A stretch of DNA of 64,000 bases from a virus: IMG/VR virus record IMGVR_UViG_3300025005_000002, positions 1 to 64,000 of that record; one strand, 5' to 3'. Position 1 is the first letter of the stretch. Every line of letters begins with the position of its first letter. Shown in pieces: positions 47,731 to 63,911 of this stretch. The notes beneath the pieces are model-generated. The model was not told where the DNA came from. It ran no database searches and saw only the letters and a program-made list of their open reading frames with translations. The translations under genes and the position numbers were made by a program.

Positions 47731-48327
47731 TTATATATAGAGAGTCTGGTCGTGTACAAGGTCATAATATACTATATATTATAATACGGAGGGGGCCCAA
47801 TTTGGATATACACATATTTTTCACGGAAATAATATAGATTCATGGATAGTGATATAGATTCACGTCTCAGATTATTGTGCGAGGCCATTTTTGCTCTGCC
47901 GTGGTCCTTTGGTGGTAAAAGTAAGATGGACAAAGTTTGGAGTAGATTAGTATATGCTGGATATCTAATTAAGAATTACCAGGAAGTAGTGAAGGTCCAT
48001 ATTTAGTCATGATGTACTTGTGCACGTGTAATAATAATGAAGGTGGAAAGGGTATAAACAAATATATCACCAAATGGGAGGTATGGAGAGCCCTTAGGAA
48101 CGCAGAAATAGCAATGTTAAAATACAAAACAAAAGGAGATAACAAATGATTAAGATCATGATAATCATCTTCGTTTTAATATTTGCCCTATACATTTTAC
48201 GAAAAGTTGCCGAGTACAATTATAAACGGTGGGGTAGATTCGATGAATAAGAAATATCTAAAGTATGATCCGTTACACCAGCAAGGAAAGAGAGGAAGGG
48301 GAAAAAAGGAATGATGACGAAAGAAGC

Positions 48328-51300
48328 GCCGCCGCGCCAGCGGCGAGGGGAGGGAAGGATGAAGCCGATCAAGGCGTGGGCGATAGGAACATTTTCGGGC
48401 GGTAAACTGTTGGGCATCGTTAGATACCAACTCAAAATGAAGACGAGGGAACCGTGTCTATACCATACCAAGGCTGACGCGCTCCGTGATGTCGAAATTG
48501 CCCTGCCGGAGGATATAACCGCTCGCCCCGTCCGCGTGACGATCACGGTGGAGGAATAGGGGGGAGAGATGATGGAAAGATGCGGCAAATGCGGGATGGT
48601 AGAGGAAAGTTCAATCCACGACATCAACAGTCCAGATACAGAAATACGAAGGGTGGCGCATCACTTCGAGTTGGTAGCCCCATGCCCTCGATGCGCCATA
48701 AAGGACGCCGCCCTCGCCGCCGCCAACGCCGAGAAGGACTTCTGGAAGTCGCACGATAAAGATGCCGACATTGTACGCGATTCCTACAACAAGGCCATTG
48801 AGGAAAGCGATCTTATTCGCGCTGACCTCGCCATCGCCAAGGCCGAGCTGACACGGCTGCGGGAGGCGATTGGGTGGGCAGAGTCTCACGCCCAAATATA
48901 CGCCACTGTCGGCGGATATAGATACGTTGATTTCGCATCCGAACTACGTCGCCGCGCCGGCGGCGAGGGGGAGGGCGGAATGATGTGGTGGTGCTGTTCC
49001 GCAGACTATCCCGATCACGATGAGAATTGCAAAGGAGGTGAGGGAAGGATGACGAGTGATCTTACTTGTGAGGATTGCGGGAGGGAGTTGCAGTTTGGCG
49101 TGGATGGGGTTTGTCGGTGTGGGAAACAACTATGCTTTGACTGTCACGAAAAGAATCACAAACGTTGCTATGAGATACCGGTACCTGGTGTGAAGGTCCC
49201 GGTGGGGGAATAGGAGGGGACGTGGACACTATAAGTTGTCAGCATGGCAATCTCGCCCGGTCCTGCGAAATCTGTGCATTGATCGCCGAGCGGGACGCGC
49301 TGAGGGAGGAAAACACCCGGTTCCGAGAGAAGCTGGACCGGGAGAAGATGGCGAAGATATTATGCGGCGGCAGAATGCGATGGAACGGGCTGTTCGAACT
49401 CACCCGCGACGGGTACAGAAGCGATGCCGACGTCCTGATCGCCTATCTTACCGAGTAGGAGGGGAACATATGTTACACCCGAACACAGGAATTGATCTCG
49501 GCAGGGAGGCTGACGAGGTTCGCAAGGAGAACGCCTCCTTTCGCGCCGCCCTCGCCGCCGCCGACGCGGAGCTGACGCGGCTGCGGGAGAGTAACGCGAG
49601 TCTGCTTGAAGGACTAAAATGCGTTGCCGACTTCGCATCCATGCCGCCCCGCGTAAGCCATGGCGCAAGTAACGGGAAGGATGAAATAGACAAACTGATC
49701 GCGGACATCGCCCTCGATTTATTGAAGCGGGTTGAATATAGATTGAGCCGCGCCGACGGCGAGGGGAGGGAAGGATGAGCATTAATTGTGGATCGTGCGG
49801 AACGCCGTTGTACCACATTGACGAAGCCTGCCCGAATTGTTTGGCCGGGTCTCGGCTTGTCGATAGGCCACCAACACACCATATTCTCCCATGCCCCCAA
49901 TGCGCCCGCTTCCGAGAGAAGTTGGACAGGGAGAAGATGATTGAAACGGTGCTCGCGGGAACGAAAGGGGTATGGACATACGATACCCTTACCGATTTCC
50001 TTATTAAATATCTCACCGAGTAGGAGGAAACAATGTACCAAGTATGCACGTGCCCGCAGTCGAATCTTACGGACGGGGATCCACATTGTTCCGTTCATGG
50101 GCAACCGTCGGAGTATAAGACTTATTCGTATTGCGAATCCTGTGTCGCCCTCCGCGCCGACCTCGCCGCCGCCAACGCCGCCAAAGAGGAAGAACAGAAG
50201 CGAAAGGAGTATTACCAAAATATCGTCTATGCGGTATGCAACGTACTCGATAAAATAAACGGATCGGCAATATGTTGCGGTACGAAAGACACTCCAACAA
50301 ATGAAGTCCAGGAAGCGATGTGCAGTCTGCAATCGAGATTGGCGGAACACACTCGCTGGGTATTACTAAATGCTGTTGATAAGAACGCATTACAGGAAGC
50401 GGAGGCCCACGCCAAGCGCCTTGAGGAATATATGCTCAAGGGCGTCGCGTTCAGGGATGAACTGCAGGCCCGCGTGAAAGAGTTGGAGTGCCAGAAGAAA
50501 GCACTCCAGCAAGTGAACGGGGAAACGGAATACAGGTTGTGCATGATACGGGAGGCGATAAAACGGAATGTAATAGACGCGCCAGACTTGCAGGCGGGAA
50601 ATATGAACGAAGCATATTTGGCATCTCTTGAATTGCAGCGTAGGAAAGAAGCCCTTACTGAAGCATACACCTCTTCCCCCCCATGCCGACACGAAGAGGA
50701 AGCGAAGCGGCTGAGGGAGGAATCACAAAGTGGGTTGGCGATGACTTCCTGCCCAGTCTGTGAGAGTGATGGCGCAAACACAAATGAATACAGGATCAAC
50801 AAGGAAATACACCGGCTACGGGAGGCGGTGGAATGGGCGCTTGGCATGTTGGATGACAATTGCGATCGGAGGTATATCCAATCCGAACTCCGCCGCCGCG
50901 CAGGGGGTGTCGAATGATCGCCGCCTACCTGAAGGAGGGAAAATGATGACGAAAACCGAGTGGAAGGATTTCGAGCGGGTTGAGCATCTGGCTGATGCCG
51001 TGGATAACCATGGCGTCGGATTCGGGAACCCACCAATGGATGACCAGATGGCTAGAACTATCCTCGCCGCCTATCGGGAACTGAAGGAACGCCGGGAGGA
51101 CGAAGAGTGGCTGAAAAAGCATTACGCTGATCTTATCTATCGTAATGACGGTGCGGTCAGTCTCCATGCGGCAGGAATAATCGGCAGGGCTATAGGACCC
51201 ACCCTCCACGACGCTGTGGACGTCGCCCGGGGAGGAAAATGATGACGTTGCAGATGCTGTGGCTAACCGTTGTTGTCATAGTGGGGTTCGCATATGTGAT

Positions 51301-51639
51301 TTACTTATTGTGTAGGATATTTGATGCGATCAACGCCGCACGGGGGAAATAAAGATGCTGAAGGAAGAGAGAGTATTCCGCCTGCGACTCAAGAAATTGT
51401 GCGGTATTGCCAACTGCGACCCACGCCCCATTCTTCGAGAACTAACATGGGTCGTGAAAGCCGTCCGGGAGGACGATGCGAAAGTGGTTGAAGGATGCGG
51501 AAACGACGAATTATATGAAGCCATCTCTGATGCTGTCCGGAAGGGGAAGCCGGTGCAACAGTGTACGTATTGCGGCTTAATGAAAGAAAATATTACGTCC
51601 AATGGTGAATGCAGAACGTGCCGCGCTGCGCATATATAA
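48328..51639 (+). other. GC-rich island of short genes built from shuffled repeated modules
   Basis: Abrupt GC rise; repeated junction blocks; genes 48359-48559, 48569-49213, 49222-49458, 49470-49778, 49775-50023, 50033-50917, 50943-51242, 51355-51639. Confidence 0.75.
50033..50917 (+). CDS. Coiled-coil/Cys-rich mosaic hypothetical protein
   Basis: AGGAGG RBS; CxC, CxxC, LRADLAAANA and ELRRRAG modules. Confidence 0.6.
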   Translation: MYQVCTCPQSNLTDGDPHCSVHGQPSEYKTYSYCESCVALRADLAAANAAKEEEQKRKEYYQNIVYAVCNVLDKINGSAICCGTKDTPTNEVQEAMCSLQSRLAEHTRWVLLNAVDKNALQEAEAHAKRLEEYMLKGVAFRDELQARVKELECQKKALQQVNGETEYRLCMIREAIKRNVIDAPDLQAGNMNEAYLASLELQRRKEALTEAYTSSPPCRHEEEAKRLREESQSGLAMTSCPVCESDGANTNEYRINKEIHRLREAVEWALGMLDDNCDRRYIQSELRRRAGGVE

Positions 51640-51848
51640 CCGTCTTCCGCGTTAAAGGAGAATGGGGATGTCTGAAATAAAGATTAGTTGTAATCAACAA
51701 GTTACGGCATTCCTTTACCAAGCCATGATGTATTTGAATCGTCGGCGGCATATGTCCCTTGCTCTGACAACCAATTTTCGCATAAGGGTAAGGCTACACA
51801 ATTTGTGGCAAAGGGTACACGGGTTATCATAACATGAGAGGAGAAAAT

Positions 51849-52103
51849 ATGAAAATAAGAAAGGGTGATATATATGAGGATTGTGCGTTTCACCCGGTGA
51901 GGTGCGAGTATATAAATGGCGATGATATCGAAGGGGTGTCATTACTTGATGGGTCCCGACCGCGCAGATGCAGTATACGGCATTGTGGGGTACGCAAAAT
52001 GACCAAGGATGAAGCGGCAGGTACAATTGCGATTTATGGGCAAGGAGGGGAGCAGGGTTTGTGGGAATATAAAAAACAACAAAGGAGTAACAAAGTAAAA
52101 TGA
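51849..52103 (+). CDS. Cys/His-rich hypothetical protein
   Basis: GAGGAG RBS; YEDCAFHPVRC...CSIRHCG. Confidence 0.6.
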   Translation: MKIRKGDIYEDCAFHPVRCEYINGDDIEGVSLLDGSRPRRCSIRHCGVRKMTKDEAAGTIAIYGQGGEQGLWEYKKQQRSNKVK

Positions 52104-54513: not shown

Positions 54514-55440
54514 ATGCAGGAATTACCGGCAGAAAAGATTGCCCAGTTAAGAGAGCATTTTATTAAGATAAGCTGTCAACCAAGGCAAGAAATAATTAAT
54601 AAGATCGCTAGACAAATGTCAAATTTGGATATTGAAATTTTGGAGTGCCAGAAGGCATTAGTAGCCCGAATAAGAGAGCTGGAGGTTAAGAAATTTGAGT
54701 ATGACGCAATGCAGATCAAACCATCGGCAGAACTTAAGGGTGCGGAATTTGACAATTTGCTCCTTCATCCTGATATTGAAAATATTGAATTTGAGGGGTA
54801 TGGGATTATAGTAACCACAAAGCCAATCAAGATTGAGTATGGCGGGGAAATATATTTTATTGGTCGATTTAATATATATCTTGAAACAAATGGTGGTATT
54901 GGGTGGTTGTTAAGGTTTAAGAATTTAGATCAAAATATATTTGGTCATCCCCATCCGCATATGCAAACAAATGGGGTACCATGTCTGGGGAATATTAAGG
55001 AATGTATGCCCCATATGATAGGTGCCAATCAGTTTGCTGCGGCGATTAATGTTGCCATTCAATATTTAAAGTCATATTCAGATTCAGATCAATATGGGAA
55101 ACCTTATGTTATATTGGAAAACTGGCCCAAAATAAAACGAGAAAAGGAGAAAGTCGATGAAGTTAGCCGAGGCGTTGATCGAGCGGAAGGGATTACAGAA
55201 GAAGATCGAGCGATTATCGGAGCGGTTGGTGAACAATGCCAAGACTCAGGAGGGGGAAACGCCCTCCGAGAATCCCCTGGAGTTGATCAAAGAGATCAAC
55301 GGGACGAACGAGGAACTGACGCATCTGATCATAGAGATCAACAAGACGAACGCCCTGGTATACTTGAACCCAGCGCAAATGCCGGTGGTGACGCTGGCCG
55401 ATGCGTTGGCCAAGAGGGATGGGATCGCGAAGAAGCGTAA
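54514..55440 (+). CDS. Coiled coil + E2/UBC-like domain protein (paralog 1)
   Basis: HPHMQTNGVPCLG matches the E2 HPN-x7-C spacing; colinear with 63042-63911; 3' part overlaps the next gene. Confidence 0.65.
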   Translation: MQELPAEKIAQLREHFIKISCQPRQEIINKIARQMSNLDIEILECQKALVARIRELEVKKFEYDAMQIKPSAELKGAEFDNLLLHPDIENIEFEGYGIIVTTKPIKIEYGGEIYFIGRFNIYLETNGGIGWLLRFKNLDQNIFGHPHPHMQTNGVPCLGNIKECMPHMIGANQFAAAINVAIQYLKSYSDSDQYGKPYVILENWPKIKREKEKVDEVSRGVDRAEGITEEDRAIIGAVGEQCQDSGGGNALRESPGVDQRDQRDERGTDASDHRDQQDERPGILEPSANAGGDAGRCVGQEGWDREEA

Positions 55441-56396: not shown

Positions 56397-56945
56397 ATGA
56401 AAATTTGTTCTCATTGTAAAATTGAAAAACCTAGGAGTGAATTTCATAAACACAAAGCAAATAAAGATGGGTTAAACTATTGGTGTAAACCCTGCAATCG
56501 CACAGCAATTGGACAGTACCGGGCCACACCAAAGGGGGAAGAAGTAAAGAGAAAAATCAAGAAGAAGTACCGGACTACACCAAAGGGGAAAGAAGAAAAG
56601 AAAAAATCAGACAAGAAATACTGGGTTACACCAAATGGGAAATTATCTAAAAGAAAAGGAAAACTAAAACAAAAGTATAATATTACTCTTAAGGATTACG
56701 ATAAGATGTTAGAGACTCAAGGTGGGGTTTGCGCCATTTGTGGTACTGATAAACCAGGAGTTGGGTTTAATCATTTTCTTGTAGATCACGACCATAAAAC
56801 TGGTAAAGTTAGAGGTTTGCTTTGCAATATATGTAATATAATATTAGAGTATCCAAATGGACCTATTATGGATGGCATTCGATCCGCTTCTGTTGATTTA
56901 ACTGAGAGATATCTAAATATTATTAAGTATTTAAATAACAGATAA
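56397..56945 (+). CDS. HNH endonuclease, endonuclease VII type
   Basis: N-terminal CxxC...CxxC; KYNITLKDYDKMLETQGGVCAICG...VDHDHKTGKVRGLLCNICN. Confidence 0.85.
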   Translation: MKICSHCKIEKPRSEFHKHKANKDGLNYWCKPCNRTAIGQYRATPKGEEVKRKIKKKYRTTPKGKEEKKKSDKKYWVTPNGKLSKRKGKLKQKYNITLKDYDKMLETQGGVCAICGTDKPGVGFNHFLVDHDHKTGKVRGLLCNICNIILEYPNGPIMDGIRSASVDLTERYLNIIKYLNNR

Positions 56946-60782: not shown

Positions 60783-62462
60783 ATGGATGATAATGCAAAA
60801 CTGATGGAGGCCTTGGAGGTTATGAAGAAAAACCTCATTGAGGCCAAAAAAGTTATTATGGCACAAGAAGAGGTTTTGGATCAATTTCGTACCCCCCCCT
60901 TTCTTCAAGGTATCGTTATTGGTGGCGTTACTGGGCAGATAGAGTGGTCTAAGTTTGTTAAGGGTTTAAAGGTAAAACTTCGTAGGGATTCCAGTTTTGC
61001 CCATCAGAGTACAGTCCCCGGAGTAATACAAAAGATTGATGAGAGTGGTTGGGCTCAAGTCTTGTGGGATAACGGTAGTTCTAATTCGTATCGTACCGGT
61101 AAACCTGGGACTGACGAAGGTGTATGTGACCTTGAATTTGCTGAAAATTCACTTGGTGAAGAAATTTGTGTGCTTGAGGGTTCGTCGGTGCATTATGCCC
61201 AAAAGCCATATATTAGGGTAGAATTAGGCGATACGGTAACTCTAAATCCGATGACGAAGCAGGTAATTGGTGTCGTGGCTCCGGTGATATCTGGGGAGAT
61301 CCGATATGTTAATAAGGTGATATCAGATGAATTGGTGGAAGTCTCTCACCAGGATGCATCCAAAGTAGTACTCACTGGGAAATTTGCCAAAAAGATGGAA
61401 AAAGGGGACCGTGTTATTGTCGATAATACTGCAACAATTGTCCTGAACAACCTGGGAAAGGACGAGACAAAGTTTGAGGTTAAAACTTCATCAATGTCAA
61501 TCAACTGGGATGATATTGGTGGGTTGGAAGATGCAAAGAGAGAGATGGTCGAAATTGTGGAACTTCCTCATAAGTATAGCAATTTATATAAGTTTTATAA
61601 CAAGAAACCGGCAAAAGGGATCTTGTTGTGGGGCCCTCCTGGTTGTGGTAAGACCATGCTTGGAAAAGCAGCAGCTACTGCAATGGCTGCTATTCATAAG
61701 CAGAATGGCAATGGAAGCGGATTTCACTATATCAAGGGACCCGAGATCCTGGACAAATATGTGGGTGTGGCAGAGGCCACAATTCGCAGGATCTTCGAAA
61801 ATGCCAAAAAACACAAGGCTAAGAACGGGTTCCCTGCTGTAGTATTTATTGACGAAGCCGACGCCATCCTAGCTAGGCGTGGTTCTGGTATCAGTTCGGA
61901 CATAAATAATACCATCGTCCCGATGTTTTTGGCGGAGATGGATGGTATGGAAGAGTCTGGTGCACTGGTATTGCTTGCGACCAATAGGGCCGATGTACTT
62001 GATCCCGCAGTAACACGTGATGGGCGAATTGACAGGAAGATAAAAGTCACAAGGCCTACAGTGAAGTCTGCTGCTGAGATTTTTATGATCGCCTTAAAGG
62101 GCGTTCCCACCAATAAGGATATACCTAAGGTGGTACTCTCACAGAAGGCTTCTGAATCATTGTTTTCCGATACCAGAATATTATATGAGATTCGTACTAA
62201 AAGGGGTGGCATGATTCCGTTCACACTTAAGCAATTGGTGAATGGGGGGATGGTGGTCGGTATTGTGGATCAAGCGATTTCAATCGCTATCCACAAAGAC
62301 ATTAAGAGGTCAGCAAAGACTGGGGTATGTGAAGAGGATATAATGATGGCGATTGACAAGATTGAGGCACAGAACTGTGGGCTCAATCATAACACTGAAT
62401 TGGAAGAAGTTGTTGCTGGTTTTCGTGAAGATGTTACAAATATTATTCCTATAAGGAGGTAA
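60783..62462 (+). CDS. arc: ARC/Mpa-type proteasome-associated AAA+ ATPase with inserted MIB/HERC2-like domain
   Basis: Coiled coil + PP hinge, OB region, Walker A GPPGCGKT, pore loop KGPEILDKYVG, Walker B FIDEAD, RGSGISSD, TNRADVLDPAVTRDGRIDRKIKVTRP and ARC-like NGGMVVGIVD. Confidence 0.85.
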   Translation: MDDNAKLMEALEVMKKNLIEAKKVIMAQEEVLDQFRTPPFLQGIVIGGVTGQIEWSKFVKGLKVKLRRDSSFAHQSTVPGVIQKIDESGWAQVLWDNGSSNSYRTGKPGTDEGVCDLEFAENSLGEEICVLEGSSVHYAQKPYIRVELGDTVTLNPMTKQVIGVVAPVISGEIRYVNKVISDELVEVSHQDASKVVLTGKFAKKMEKGDRVIVDNTATIVLNNLGKDETKFEVKTSSMSINWDDIGGLEDAKREMVEIVELPHKYSNLYKFYNKKPAKGILLWGPPGCGKTMLGKAAATAMAAIHKQNGNGSGFHYIKGPEILDKYVGVAEATIRRIFENAKKHKAKNGFPAVVFIDEADAILARRGSGISSDINNTIVPMFLAEMDGMEESGALVLLATNRADVLDPAVTRDGRIDRKIKVTRPTVKSAAEIFMIALKGVPTNKDIPKVVLSQKASESLFSDTRILYEIRTKRGGMIPFTLKQLVNGGMVVGIVDQAISIAIHKDIKRSAKTGVCEEDIMMAIDKIEAQNCGLNHNTELEEVVAGFREDVTNIIPIRR

Positions 62463-62465
62463 GTT

Positions 62466-62693
62466 GTGAGTGCACAGGAGCAGATTAAGAAGAGGTCGCA
62501 TAAAGGCGGTGGGGGGGGCGGTTCTAATGATTTTGACGGTCTTGGGCTTGAAATGGCCGTTATCCCCGGCGTTGATGAAGTGTTACGCAATTTAGATAGT
62601 GATATTAAGAATGTTGGTGGGTTGATTAATAGGACACAGGAAAGGATTAATCAGAGACAGGACCGGCGTCCTTCGCATAATTGTGAATGTTAA
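62466..62693 (+). CDS. Pup-like small protein with non-canonical CEC C-terminus
   Basis: GTG start with AGGAGGT RBS; SAQEQIKKRSHKGGGGGG...DEVLRNLDSDI resembles Pup AQEQTKRGGGGG...DDLLDEIDDVL; directly after arc. Confidence 0.55.
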   Translation: MSAQEQIKKRSHKGGGGGGSNDFDGLGLEMAVIPGVDEVLRNLDSDIKNVGGLINRTQERINQRQDRRPSHNCEC

Positions 62694-63045
62694 TTTTGGA
62701 GGTGGCACAATGTTTAATGGGCTGCTTGTTTGTTTAATACTGGCTGGTGCGGTGGCATCAATTTCTTGCTCCATTAGTAAGGCTGGGGTTATGAGACCCA
62801 TCAGGCAATGGGTCCGTAAAAAGAATGCATGGCTTGGTAAACTTGTGTCCTGTGTATATTGTACTAGCCACTGGATATCAGCGATATTAGTTATAATTTA
62901 TAGGCCAATCCCGTTGCGTTTAGTACAACCAATTGATTCAATAGTTGCCATATTTTTGATAGTGACTATGGCAGCTGGGATGATTTATTGGATTGATTGG
63001 TCTATTGGTTTTCAACCAGATCCACCACAAGAGGGTAATCAATGA
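62683..63045 (+). CDS. DUF1360-like membrane protein
   Basis: TM helices with LVSCVYCTSHW motif. Confidence 0.65.
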   Translation: MNVNFGGGTMFNGLLVCLILAGAVASISCSISKAGVMRPIRQWVRKKNAWLGKLVSCVYCTSHWISAILVIIYRPIPLRLVQPIDSIVAIFLIVTMAAGMIYWIDWSIGFQPDPPQEGNQ

Positions 63046-63911
63046 GGGTACATCCAGATTCGGTGGTTGCTTTAAAAGAGGCCTATTTCAAGAATAAACC
63101 CGAATTATCTAGGTTTGTGGCTGGTCGTTTAAAGGTCAACAAACAAACCGTTGTTGGTGTACATGCCAAGCATTTTAAGGAGGTATGTAAGGTACTAAAA
63201 TTACCAATAAGTAAGTTAAAAAGTAGTCGTACTGTATATCGTGGAGTGTATATGGCTACAGTAGACGAATCATTTAAGTCAAAACTGAAAGATAAAAGAC
63301 AAGAAATGCGGCAAAAATATATTGAAATAGCTAGTGGTTTAAGGTCAAAAAAAGCAGTGGAACACCTAAAACATGCGATACATGATCAAGAAGCACGCAT
63401 CCACGCGATTCAAATAGATTTGGTAAATAACCTAAAAAATCTTGAGGGGAAAAATAGAGAATATAAAGTAATTTGTGAAGGTGATCAGGGTACCACAGAA
63501 AACAAAGGTGTTGAATTTGATAAGTTAATGGCTAATCCTGATATAGTAAGGATATTTATAGATGATAATTATTTTACTGTATGGACTAGACCTATTTATA
63601 TTAAGTATAATAATAAGATATATGATGTTGGTGAATTTAAAATAGTATTAGCAATTAACCCTACGGAATTTATAGTAAAAATGCGTAATTTGACCAGAAA
63701 GATTAAAGGTTATGCTCATCCACACATACGTAATAATGGGCGGCCATGTCTTGGTAATATCCAAGAATGTTTACCTCAAATGATTGCAGCACGGCAATTT
63801 GCAGCCGCTATTTTTGTATGTATTCAATATTTAAAATCAGTTAATGATAGTGGATATTATGTAAATATTCACAATTGGCCTTTAAAAATGGCAAAGAGAA
63901 GAGGGAAATAG
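63042..63911 (+). CDS. Coiled coil + E2/UBC-like domain protein (paralog 2)
   Basis: HPHIRNNGRPCLG; colinear with 54514-55440. Confidence 0.7.
   Translation: MRVHPDSVVALKEAYFKNKPELSRFVAGRLKVNKQTVVGVHAKHFKEVCKVLKLPISKLKSSRTVYRGVYMATVDESFKSKLKDKRQEMRQKYIEIASGLRSKKAVEHLKHAIHDQEARIHAIQIDLVNNLKNLEGKNREYKVICEGDQGTTENKGVEFDKLMANPDIVRIFIDDNYFTVWTRPIYIKYNNKIYDVGEFKIVLAINPTEFIVKMRNLTRKIKGYAHPHIRNNGRPCLGNIQECLPQMIAARQFAAAIFVCIQYLKSVNDSGYYVNIHNWPLKMAKRRGK

What the first reader, a model, noticed from the sequence alone, without database searches (positions are those of the whole stretch)
60783..62462. ARC/Mpa ATPase with a MIB/HERC2-like insertion and no HbYX tail
Seen: between the coiled-coil PP hinge and the OB region is an insert KGLKVKLRRDSSFAHQSTVPGVIQKIDESGWAQVLWDNGSSNSYRTGKPGTDEGVCDL (~60958-61140). 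Established: the MIB/HERC2 domain of eukaryotic E3 ligases has the pattern G.RV.RG.DW...G.V...V.WDNG..N.YR....DL and binds peptide substrates. Mpa docks on the 20S through a C-terminal GQYL, whereas this protein ends IIPIRR. Inference: a substrate-recognition domain built into the unfoldase, possibly working without a 20S core.
Basis: partly seen in the sequence, partly recalled or inferred. Interest (0 to 1): 0.8.

Follow-up and report, generated by a model that had tools for sequence, protein, structure and literature searches.

The report
Phage Mpa-like unfoldase with MIB/HERC2 barrel
A large phage encodes a protein-unfolding motor built like the mycobacterial proteasome ATPase Mpa, but without the proteasome-docking tail and with a target-binding barrel of the type known from animal ubiquitin ligases (MIB/HERC2) inserted in its entry ring; this suggests a self-targeting unfoldase that works without a proteasome.

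Summary

- **Gene:** 60783-62462 (+) encodes a 559-aa AAA+ protein. Its best structural and sequence match is Mpa/ARC: coiled coil, PP hinge, two OB domains and one AAA+ module.
- **Insert:** Residues 52-122 are a true insertion in the beta1-beta2 turn of the first OB domain. The insert is not the OB domain itself.
- **Homology of the insert:** It is a real homologue of the MIB/HERC2 domain.
  - A 13-sequence profile hits only MIB1 and HECTD1 significantly in the PDB (E about 1e-7).
  - An exhaustive search retrieves Pfam-certified MIB/HERC2 ligase proteins at the top.
  - The AlphaFold model (pLDDT 86) matches HECTD1 and MIB1 best.
- **Tail:** The protein ends IIPIRR. Of 139 canonical ARC loci, 120 end in G[QH]YL or SQYL; none of 54 loci of this family does.
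- **Missing partners:** No 20S, Pup ligase or ClpP is found in the 178-kb phage record.
- **Family:** The gene belongs to a large, apparently undescribed sister clade of ARC on big phages and CPR-like genomes.
  - The same loop carries the MIB-like barrel (70 of 119), an unrelated module, or nothing.
  - The usual companions are a Pup-like mini-protein ending in Cys-x-Cys and a DUF1360 membrane protein; here a ubiquitin-like E2-JAB-E1-Ubl cassette follows.
- **Untested:** Substrate binding by the insert is inferred, not shown.
- **Earlier findings:** The scan had found the cassette before on other DNA, but not this insert.

The parts
60783..62462 (+). ARC/Mpa-like AAA+ ATPase gene, 559 aa plus stop codon
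   Evidence: ORF with ribosome-binding site. NCBIfam TIGR03689 scores 299.6 bits, below its cut-off. Foldseek's top hits for the full model are Mpa entries 7pxc, 7px9 and 5kwa, E about 1e-25.
60783..60899 (+). N-terminal coiled-coil helix (residues 3-36) and T-P-P hinge (residues 37-39)
   Evidence: AlphaFold model, helix 3-36. The hinge aligns with the PP of canonical ARC.
60903..60929 (+). First strand of OB domain 1 (residues 41-49)
   Evidence: Model strand 41-49. It aligns with the first OB1 strand of canonical ARC and of insert-less homologues.
60936..61148 (+). MIB/HERC2-like five-stranded barrel inserted in the beta1-beta2 turn of OB1 (residues 52-122). Signature motifs: G-x-K-V-K-L-R-R-D-S, W-D-N-G-x-x-N-x-Y-R-x-G and C-D-L.
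   Evidence: Profile against PDB: MIB1 and HECTD1, E about 1e-7. Domain model pLDDT 85.8. Foldseek top four are HECTD1 and MIB1. VIA-align Z 8.7 to 2dk3. Exhaustive profile search. Absent from insert-less homologues and from canonical ARC.
61158..61277 (+). Rest of OB domain 1 (residues 126-165)
   Evidence: Model strands 126-131, 134-138, 151-154 and 161-165. Alignment to canonical ARC OB1.
61296..61460 (+). OB domain 2 (residues 172-226)
   Evidence: Five model strands. Weak Pfam Prot_ATP_ID_OB_C hit; 9 of 42 homologues hit it, best E 7.5e-6.
61500..62417 (+). AAA+ module. Walker A GPPGCGKT (61632-61655), pore loop KYVG (61755-61766), Walker B VVFIDEAD (61839-61862), sensor-1 ATNR, Arg fingers RDGRIDR (62016-62036).
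   Evidence: Pfam AAA 112.6 bits. Motif positions computed.
62442..62459 (+). C-terminal tail IIPIRR, with no GQYL/HbYX motif
   Evidence: Control: 120 of 139 canonical ARC loci end G[QH]YL or SQYL, against 0 of 54 family loci.
62466..62693 (+). Pup-like 75-aa protein ending Cys-Glu-Cys. A conserved partner of the ATPase, but not specific to the MIB-type insert.
   Evidence: Present in 29 of 46 family loci that have enough downstream DNA. hhalign against a Pup profile: 92.5% probability, E 4.9e-7, covering the N-terminus and the docking helix only; 0 of 30 shuffles above 1%. No Pfam hit.
62683..63045 (+). DUF1360 membrane protein with the motif S-C-x-Y-C-x-S-H-W
   Evidence: Pfam DUF1360 31.5 bits, cut-off 21. 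Motif present in 27 of 46 family loci. tblastn hits in more than 30 loci.
63042..63911 (+). Coiled-coil protein with an E2-like H-P-H...C motif. It is the first gene of a ubiquitin-like cassette that continues beyond the window: E2-like paralogue, JAMM peptidase, ThiF E1 and a 76-aa Ubl.
   Evidence: ORFs in L194. ThiF 83.6 bits. JAMM motif HxHx7SxxD read in the sequence. The E2 assignment rests on the motif only; there is no Pfam hit.

Best explanation
The gene encodes a hexameric AAA+ protein unfoldase of the ARC/Mpa architecture: an N-terminal coiled coil, a double OB ring and one AAA+ ring with intact Walker A and B motifs, pore loop and arginine fingers.

It belongs to a separate clade carried by large phages and CPR-like small genomes. 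That clade has lost, or never had, the C-terminal GQYL tail that opens the 20S gate. It most likely acts as a stand-alone unfoldase or disassembly machine, not as a proteasome cap.

A MIB/HERC2-type SH3-like barrel, homologous to the peptide-binding domain of eukaryotic E3 ligases, is spliced into the first hairpin of OB1. The assembled ring would therefore carry six copies of it around the substrate entrance. The most likely role of the barrel is a built-in receptor for a short linear motif of a substrate or adaptor. Different family members swap this module for another one, or have none.

The motor probably also uses the co-encoded Pup-like mini-protein on its coiled coils, and through that protein's Cys-x-Cys end the DUF1360 membrane protein.

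Shown: the architecture, the homology and position of the insert, the missing tail, the missing 20S and ligase genes, and the conserved partners. Inferred: hexamer formation, ligand binding by the barrel, independence from any protease, and what the phage uses it for.
For: **Architecture**
- Foldseek of the full model puts Mpa on top (7pxc, 7px9, 5kwa, 5kzf; E about 1e-25). Rpt subunits follow at about 1e-16.
- TIGR03689 is the best NCBIfam hit.
- phmmer aligns residues 147-523 to Mpa 5kwa.
- The catalytic motifs are intact.

**Insert**
- The profile hits only MIB1 and HECTD1 significantly in the PDB.
- The exhaustive search gives 784 hits. The top ones are Pfam-certified MIB/HERC2 proteins with RING and ankyrin domains.
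- Fold matches: 3dkm E 3e-4 with 35% identity, 2dk3, 4xi6 and 4xi7. VIA-align gives Z 8.7, rmsd 3.6 over 76 aligned residues to 2dk3, the only Z >= 8.
- The ESM Atlas search returns eukaryotic MIB clusters plus a 590-aa AAA cluster that is 52% viral.

**Position**
- Insert-less homologues and canonical ARC close the same hairpin with 2-4 residues.
- The model has both OB domains complete besides the barrel.

**Modularity**
- Of 119 homologues, 70 carry the MIB-like barrel, 42 another insert and 7 none.
- Ten of the short other inserts are related to the barrel (hhalign 96%). Twenty-eight long ones are unrelated (0.5%).
- On the tree the insert type changes at least 10 times across well-supported branches.

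**No proteasome link**
- Tail statistics.
- No PF00227, PF03136 or PF00574 in the phage record.
- No PF00227 or PF03136 in four genomes that hold family members.
- Canonical ARC forms its own side of a branch with 99% support.

**Peptide binding as the known role of the domain**
- The Mib-Herc2-ZZ-Mib-Herc2 region of MIB1 binds the N-box peptide of JAG1 and Delta (PMC11887331; PDB 4xi7 title).
Against: - No binding experiment or ligand prediction was made for the barrel.
- The phage host is unknown, so a host protease partner cannot be excluded.
- The four genomes checked for 20S are incomplete metagenome bins.
- Corynebacteria and bifidobacteria show that ARC can lose its tail and still have a function that is not understood. 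Absence of the tail therefore does not define what the motor does.
- Pfam's own MIB_HERC2 threshold is not reached: 21-24 bits against 33.5.
Confidence: 0.6

Rival explanations
1. The barrel is the receptor that couples the motor to the neighbouring ubiquitin-like cascade. It would recognise the 76-aa Ubl, an E2-Ubl intermediate or Ubl-tagged proteins, so that tagged proteins are unfolded. This would be a phage analogue of ubiquitin-to-Cdc48/proteasome targeting.
For: - In this phage and in its close relatives (L195, L190) the ATPase cassette runs straight into two E2-like genes, a JAMM peptidase, a ThiF E1 and a Ubl.
- A family member at only 46% identity (L193), also with a MIB-like insert, has a Ubl ending GG plus four residues, a Prok-JAB and a ThiF about 5 kb downstream.
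- In eukaryotes the MIB/HERC2 domain is confined to ubiquitin ligases.
Against: - Among about 55 family loci, only these two lineages have an E1 nearby.
- Most MIB-type members have no Ubl cassette within 10 kb (L191, L197, L198, L199, L001, L002).
- No binding test was run.
- Known MIB/HERC2 ligands are substrate peptides, not ubiquitin.
Confidence: 0.12
2. The motor still feeds a compartmental protease, either a host 20S/HslV-like particle or another peptidase, and docks by contacts other than a GQYL/HbYX tail. The barrel would select the substrates to be degraded.
For: - Closest relatives of known function are proteasome caps.
- Four homologues have a penultimate tyrosine, ending QAYA or QGYN.
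- One CPR-like locus has a ClpP gene 4 kb away, on the opposite strand.
Against: - No 20S, HslV or ClpP gene in the phage record.
- No PF00227 in four genomes with family members.
- The conserved C-terminus of the family (…DFREDVVGIQRLRQ…) bears no docking motif.
- No protease gene is conserved beside the cassette.
Confidence: 0.13
3. The barrel has no ligand of its own. It is a structural or regulatory element, for example bracing neighbouring OB1 domains, positioning the coiled coils or gating the pore.
For: - Members without any insert exist, and they keep the same partners, so the barrel is dispensable for the core function.
- SH3-like barrels often serve as spacers.
Against: - The signature residues of the MIB/HERC2 family are kept over 40-85% sequence divergence: the Y-R-x-G motif, D-L, and the G-x-V core.
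- The loop is occupied by unrelated modules in different members. This pattern is typical of specificity modules rather than of a brace.
Confidence: 0.12
4. The supposed insert is simply the ordinary first OB domain of ARC.
For: None found.
Against: - Both OB domains are present in addition to the barrel.
- Canonical ARC and insert-less homologues align on either side of the insert with a 2-4-residue turn.
- The domain model matches MIB/HERC2 domains best. No OB fold stands among the rows listed.
Confidence: 0.01

Closest known systems
Mpa/ARC, the AAA+ ATPase of the actinobacterial Pup-proteasome system (TIGR03689; PDB 5kwa, 5kzf, 7px9-7pxd)
   Same: N-terminal coiled coil with PP hinge, two consecutive OB domains, a single AAA+ module with the same motifs, and a C-terminal helical/beta region. 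It is the best structural and sequence match, with 33-38% identity over residues about 145-540. A Pup-like partner is encoded next to it.
   Different: - Scores below the equivalog cut-off: 299.6 against 504.75 bits.
- Forms a separate clade.
- Has no GQYL tail.
- No Dop/PafA ligase or 20S is found in the phage record.
- Carries a 71-residue MIB/HERC2-like barrel inside OB1.
- The partner peptide ends Cys-x-Cys instead of Gly-Gly-Gln/Glu and is followed by a DUF1360 membrane protein.
MIB/HERC2 domain (Pfam PF06701) of the eukaryotic E3 ligases MIB1/2, HERC2 and HECTD1 (PDB 4xi6, 4xi7, 2dk3, 3dkm)
   Same: Five-stranded SH3-like barrel of about 65 residues. It has the same conserved core (G-x-[RK]-V at the first strand, G-x-V, [WF]-D-x-G-x-x-N-x-Y-R-x-G, D-L) and 29-35% identity to the solved domains.
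   Different: - Found in a phage AAA+ unfoldase, not in a RING or HECT ligase.
- Inserted within another domain.
- Below Pfam's gathering score.
- A near-conserved Cys precedes the D-L motif.
- The ligand is unknown.
Tail-less ARC of actinobacteria without a 20S (Corynebacterium, Bifidobacteriaceae, Bowdeniella, Mobiluncus, Actinotignum)
   Same: ARC-type motors whose C-termini lack GQYL (L010, L054, L011, L029, L038, L062). They are a precedent for a proteasome-free role.
   Different: Those proteins lie inside the canonical ARC side of the tree, where included. They keep Pup in the neighbourhood (for example L054) and have no insert in OB1 (L010).
Cdc48/p97/VAT and PAN/Rpt unfoldases with N-terminal recognition domains
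   Same: A ring unfoldase whose N-terminal region supplies substrate or adaptor docking. The AAA module is 35-40% identical.
   Different: Those use a double-psi barrel N domain (Cdc48) or only a coiled coil plus a single OB (PAN). None has a MIB/HERC2 barrel spliced into an OB hairpin.

Membership tests
ARC/Mpa proteasomal ATPase (TIGR03689, Pup-proteasome system) | Coiled coil, PP hinge, double OB interdomain and a single AAA+ module | tested here: met
   AlphaFold model elements. Foldseek top hits are Mpa, E about 1e-25. Pfam AAA 112.6 bits. Alignment to canonical ARC.
ARC/Mpa proteasomal ATPase (TIGR03689, Pup-proteasome system) | Score above the curated equivalog cut-off of TIGR03689 | tested here: not met
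   299.6 bits against a cut-off of 504.75. The match covers residues 146-541 only.
ARC/Mpa proteasomal ATPase (TIGR03689, Pup-proteasome system) | C-terminal GQYL (HbYX-type) tail that docks on the 20S | tested here: not met
   The protein ends IIPIRR. No family locus of 54 has the tail, against 120 of 139 canonical loci.
ARC/Mpa proteasomal ATPase (TIGR03689, Pup-proteasome system) | Co-occurrence with Pup ligase/deamidase (PafA/Dop) and 20S subunits | tested here: not met
   No PF03136 or PF00227 in the 178-kb phage record, nor in four genomes with family members. The host genome is unknown.
ARC/Mpa proteasomal ATPase (TIGR03689, Pup-proteasome system) | Placement inside the canonical ARC clade | tested here: not met
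   In a FastTree of 173 sequences on the OB2 plus AAA columns, the 30 canonical ARC rows form one side of a branch (support 99) against the phage/CPR family.
MIB/HERC2 domain (Pfam PF06701) | Pfam gathering score of 33.5 bits | tested here: not met
   21.4 bits from the protein and 24.2 bits from the DNA search. Nine of 42 homologues hit, all below threshold.
MIB/HERC2 domain (Pfam PF06701) | Significant and specific profile similarity to proven MIB/HERC2 domains, in both directions | tested here: met
   Insert profile against PDB: MIB1 E 1.1e-7 and HECTD1 E 6.9e-7, with nothing else below 0.03. The same profile retrieves proteins that pass Pfam MIB_HERC2 with 230-433 bits. One is named MIB/HERC2 domain-containing protein of Kipferlia.
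MIB/HERC2 domain (Pfam PF06701) | SH3-like five-stranded barrel closest to solved MIB/HERC2 structures | tested here: met
   Model pLDDT 85.8. Foldseek ranks 1-4 are 3dkm, 2dk3, 4xi6 and 4xi7. VIA-align Z 8.7, rmsd 3.6 over 76 residues for 2dk3; the other rows are at or below Z 7.7.
MIB/HERC2 domain (Pfam PF06701) | Binds a short peptide of a ligase substrate | not testable with these tools
   Known for the Mib-Herc2-ZZ-Mib-Herc2 region of MIB1 (PMC11887331). No ligand is known or was predicted here.
Pup (PF05639), for the downstream 75-aa protein | Pfam match and a C-terminal Gly-Gly-Gln/Glu for ligation | tested here: not met
   No Pfam hit. The protein ends Cys-Glu-Cys. All 74 Pup sequences taken from canonical loci end QKGG[QE].
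Pup (PF05639), for the downstream 75-aa protein | Disordered N-terminus followed by the Mpa-docking helix (D-D-L-L-D-E-I-D-x-V-L type) | tested here: met
   hhalign of 22 small proteins against 74 Pups: probability 92.5%, E 4.9e-7, columns 3-47 against 2-44. The reversed profile gives 11.6%; 30 column shuffles give at most 0.6%.
DUF1360 (PF07098), for the 120-aa membrane protein | Pfam gathering score | tested here: met
   31.5 bits against a cut-off of 21.

The most novel reading that the evidence does not exclude
It would bind proteins marked by the adjacent E1-E2-JAB-Ubl cascade, or the Pup-like Cys-x-Cys protein held at the membrane by DUF1360. The phage would then run a complete tag-and-unfold pathway without a proteasome. 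The domain that eukaryotic E3 ligases use to pick substrates would have begun as a receptor module of prokaryotic or viral unfoldases.
Probability: 0.12. Interest if true: 0.9.

Novelty: new variant of a known kind. Interest (0 to 1): 0.64.

Why it matters
- **Origin of the domain.** MIB/HERC2 domains are treated as a eukaryotic ubiquitin-ligase invention. Here a clear homologue is built into a proteasome-type unfoldase of phages and ultra-small bacteria. It sits beside Pup-like and ubiquitin-like genes. This bears on the prokaryotic and viral roots of the ubiquitin-system toolkit.
- **Targeting of AAA+ motors.** A single OB hairpin serves as a socket for exchangeable recognition modules. This is a simple natural solution to targeting an unfoldase without adaptors or tags, and a possible scaffold for engineered, programmable unfoldases.
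- **Phage biology.** A large phage carries its own targeted unfoldase together with a tagging cascade. This points to selective remodelling or removal of host or phage proteins during infection.
- **Literature.** The full-text searches made here turned up no paper that describes this clade, its insert or its partners.

Tried and rejected
- **Stand-alone copies of the barrel.** A word-based search for proteins of 41-132 aa similar to the insert found nothing. This is no evidence of absence: the exhaustive profile search later found many short and multi-repeat proteins with the domain.
- **PHROGs.** No family for 9 of 10 large proteins of the window, so the phage type and host could not be named.
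- **GenBank phages.** tblastn against phage records gave only AAA-core matches at or below 38% identity; none covered the N-terminal region.
- **Literature.** Searches for huge phages plus proteasome, MIB/HERC2 in prokaryotes, DUF1360, proteasome-associated ATPase plus phage, and Mpa/Pup/Patescibacteria found nothing relevant.
- **Rfam.** No RNA family above threshold in the window.
- **Link between insert type and partners.** Rejected. The Pup-like protein and DUF1360 occur with MIB-type, other-type and insert-less motors alike, so they are not the specific ligand of the barrel.
- **Ubl cassette as a constant companion.** Rejected. It is found only in the window's own clade and in L193.
- **The long (about 95-103 aa) alternative insert as a diverged MIB barrel.** Rejected: hhalign probability 0.5%.
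Full report
**Setting**

The window is the first 64 kb of a 178,008-bp IMG/VR virus record, estimated 92% complete. All long ORFs lie on the + strand and G+C is about 37%. Most large proteins have no PHROG family. The gene in question runs from ATG 60783, with aaggggagg a few bases upstream, to the stop at 62460-62462 and gives 559 residues. Orthologues at 75-85% identity have the same length and start.

**What the protein is**

Family and structure matches:
- Pfam sees one AAA domain, residues 280-423, at 112.6 bits.
- The best NCBIfam model is the proteasome ATPase equivalog TIGR03689. The score is 299.6 bits against a cut-off of 504.75, and the match covers residues 146-541 only.
- Among solved structures, the best single-module match is M. 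tuberculosis Mpa, 5kwa, aligned to residues 147-523.
- An AlphaFold model built on 42 homologues has mean pLDDT 78. It shows a long helix (3-36), a T-P-P hinge, a strand (41-49), a five-stranded unit (63-119), four more strands (126-165), a second five-stranded unit (172-226) and the AAA+ module.
- Foldseek with this model lists Mpa entries first (7pxc, 7px9, 5kwa, 5kzf; E about 1e-25). Rpt subunits of the 26S proteasome follow at about 1e-16.
- Walker A, the pore loop K-Y-V-G, Walker B, sensor 1 and the arginine fingers are intact.

**The insert**

Position:
- In an alignment of 119 homologues, seven close the hairpin after the first strand with a few residues. The window's protein has 71 extra residues there.
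- Canonical ARC proteins of Amycolatopsis, Nitrospirae and Corynebacterium also pass from the first to the second OB1 strand within 2-4 residues.
- Residues 52-122 are therefore an insertion in the beta1-beta2 turn of OB1. They are neither a linker before the OB region nor OB1 itself.

Homology to MIB/HERC2:
- On its own the protein gives sub-threshold Pfam hits to MIB_HERC2 (E 2.3e-4, 21.4 bits) and to DUF4314. Nine of 42 homologues hit MIB_HERC2 individually.
- A profile of 13 inserts taken from the window and from fetched loci (A2) finds three significant PDB sequences. They are MIB1 (E 1.1e-7, both of its Mib-Herc2 domains) and two HECTD1 Mib-Herc2 entries (E 6.9e-7). The next hits are PsaE at E >= 0.03.
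- The same profile, run by HMMER over 1.84 billion representatives, gives 784 proteins at E <= 1e-3. The top hits carry 5-10 repeats.
- These top hits pass Pfam MIB_HERC2 with 230-433 bits and often carry RING fingers or ankyrin repeats. The best is annotated as a MIB/HERC2 domain-containing protein of the protist Kipferlia.
- The domain alone folds with pLDDT 85.8.
- Foldseek ranks HECTD1 (3dkm, E 3e-4, 35% identity; 2dk3) and MIB1 (4xi6, 4xi7) first. General SH3-like barrels come after them.
- An independent aligner gives 2dk3 the only Z >= 8: Z 8.7, rmsd 3.6, 76 residues aligned.
- The ESM Atlas search returns eukaryotic MIB clusters. It also returns a 590-aa AAA cluster that is 52% viral and a 239-aa all-viral cluster.

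**The tail and the proteasome**

The protein ends IIPIRR.
- Among loci fetched with the family profile, 139 canonical ARC genes had a complete 3' end (33-39% identity; Actinobacteria, Nitrospirae and others). Of these, 105 end GQYL, 14 GHYL and 1 SQYL.
- The exceptions include Corynebacterium, Bifidobacteriaceae, Bowdeniella, Mobiluncus and Actinotignum.
- None of 54 loci of the window's family ends that way.
- Of about 119 homologous proteins, four have a penultimate tyrosine (QAYA, QGYN) and none has GQYL.
- The phage record holds no match to Proteasome (PF00227), Pup_ligase (PF03136) or CLP_protease (PF00574).
- Four genome bins that carry family members hold no PF00227 or PF03136. These bins are incomplete, and the phage's host is unknown.

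**The family**

- Homologues at 42-50% identity over the full length number in the hundreds at least.
- They lie on viral contigs of 50-570 kb and on contigs with cellular genes attributed to CPR lineages: Kerfeldbacteria, Staskawiczbacteria and Saccharibacteria.
- Only four of about 186,000 species genomes gave close matches; everything else was canonical ARC.
- In a tree on the OB2 plus AAA columns, the 30 canonical ARC rows separate from the 143 family rows with support 99. The window groups with three close relatives on a long branch.

Insert types:
- 70 of 119 homologues are MIB-like, 42 carry another insert and 7 have none.
- Ten short other inserts are related to the MIB-like barrel: hhalign 96.3%, E 1.8e-9.
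- Twenty-eight inserts of about 95-103 residues are unrelated (0.5%).
- Well-supported branches force at least 10 changes of insert type on the tree.
- Some members carry more than one copy of the barrel.

The hairpin thus behaves as a socket for exchangeable modules.

**Partners**

Small protein:
- A 75-aa protein is encoded directly downstream (62466-62693). It has a basic, Gly-rich N-terminus, an acidic amphipathic stretch and the end Cys-Glu-Cys.
- Proteins of this kind follow the ATPase in 29 of 46 family loci with enough downstream DNA.
- Their profile aligns with a profile of 74 genuine Pups taken from the canonical loci. The alignment covers the N-terminus and the docking helix only: probability 92.5%, E 4.9e-7. 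The reversed control gives 11.6% and 30 shuffles give at most 0.6%.
- Pfam does not recognise the protein.

Membrane protein:
- A DUF1360 membrane protein comes next (62683-63045; 31.5 bits against a cut-off of 21).
- It carries the motif S-C-x-Y-C-x-S-H-W, which is present in 27 of 46 loci.
- Both partners occur whatever the insert type, so neither is the barrel's specific ligand.

Complex prediction:
- Two copies of residues 1-170 were folded with the small protein. The verdict was weak support: score 0.55, best of 3 controls 0.10.
- In the tool's calibration, 58 of 80 solved complexes and 2 of 110 mismatched pairs reached the mark. At 0.60 or below, only 7 of those 80 solved complexes did, and so did both mismatches that passed.
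- The runs agree in at least 49% of contacts, and the partner's pLDDT is at least 56.
- As I recall, a Pup-Mpa coiled-coil complex has been solved; none was looked up here. The pass may therefore reflect likeness only.

Ubiquitin-like cassette:
- Beyond DUF1360 come two coiled-coil proteins with an E2-like H-P-H...C motif, a protein with a JAMM motif, a ThiF E1 (83.6 bits) and a 76-aa Ubl candidate.
- This cassette is shared by the close relatives L195 and L190. A comparable Ubl, Prok-JAB and ThiF set lies 5 kb from the MIB-type ATPase of L193.
- It is absent around the other family loci.

**Interpretation**

Most likely this is a proteasome-independent ARC-type unfoldase whose entry ring carries six MIB/HERC2-type barrels as built-in receptors. 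The reasons to read the barrel as a receptor are these:
- The known role of the domain in MIB1 is binding of a short peptide of Notch ligands (PMC11887331).
- The family signature is conserved across wide sequence divergence.
- Unrelated modules replace it at the same loop.

What the barrel binds is unknown. The neighbouring Ubl cascade makes a tag-reading role attractive, but the cascade is present in only two lineages.

**Earlier findings of the scan**

The scan had already met the ATPase / Pup-like / DUF1360 cassette on other DNA, and MIB/HERC2-like barrels in other phage and CPR proteins. I reproduced the cassette findings independently. The barrel inside the ATPase had not been followed up.

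Noticed in passing
window 62466-63045: The Pup-like protein ends Cys-x-Cys. The next gene's DUF1360 protein carries a conserved C-x-x-C...H in what looks like a cytoplasmic loop rich in Arg and Lys. Together these could form a four-ligand zinc site that tethers the adaptor, and through it the unfoldase, to the membrane. From memory, this resembles the CD4-Lck zinc clasp (CxC plus CxxC). Not tested.
   Followed up: partly
window 63042-63911 and L194 3946-6185 (genome 63946-66185): A ubiquitin-like cassette follows the ATPase module: two paralogous coiled-coil proteins with an E2-like H-P-H...C motif, a JAMM-motif protein, a ThiF E1 (Pfam 83.6 bits) and a 76-aa protein ending Arg-Gly-Asn. A third E2-like paralogue, at 54514-55440, was noted by first-stage readers.
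   Followed up: partly
L193 13068-18603: A cellular-looking 284-kb contig carries a MIB-type ATPase cassette. It also holds a second, unrelated AAA protein, two unknown proteins, an 86-aa Ubl ending Gly-Gly plus four residues, a Prok-JAB (26.8 bits) and a ThiF E1 (61 bits). This is a second, independent pairing of the motor with a Ubl system.
   Followed up: partly
window 48001-52000: G+C jumps to 0.50-0.53, against 0.31-0.44 on either side. There are long overlapping ORFs on both strands, and the + strand ORFs (48569-49213, 49236-49778, 50033-50917) have no Pfam family.
   Followed up: partly
window 56397-56945: Endonuclease VII / HNH-type gene (Pfam PF02945, 79.6 bits). First-stage notes say it is flanked by two copies of a structured element. 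Rfam finds no known family anywhere in the window.
   Followed up: partly
window 31890-33503: ATP-dependent DNA ligase (phrog_114, E 1.2e-34). It is the only one of ten large proteins of the window that matched a PHROG.
   Followed up: no
P0002 (ENA contig of 5.3 kb): A protein 100% identical to the window's ATPase over 98% of its length, but with a different, longer C-terminal end (568 aa). This looks like a frameshift or an assembly difference in another sample.
   Followed up: no
L191/L192 1594-9457: Next to the cassette on a CPR-like contig lie a diversity-generating retroelement (bAvd plus reverse transcriptase), a Fic protein, RadC and a restriction-modification set with a Vsr endonuclease.
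   Followed up: no
P0035, P0067, P0082 and relatives (720-780 aa): Some family members are about 200 residues longer and carry two or three MIB-like barrels before the OB region: 3 matched stretches and 2.
   Followed up: partly
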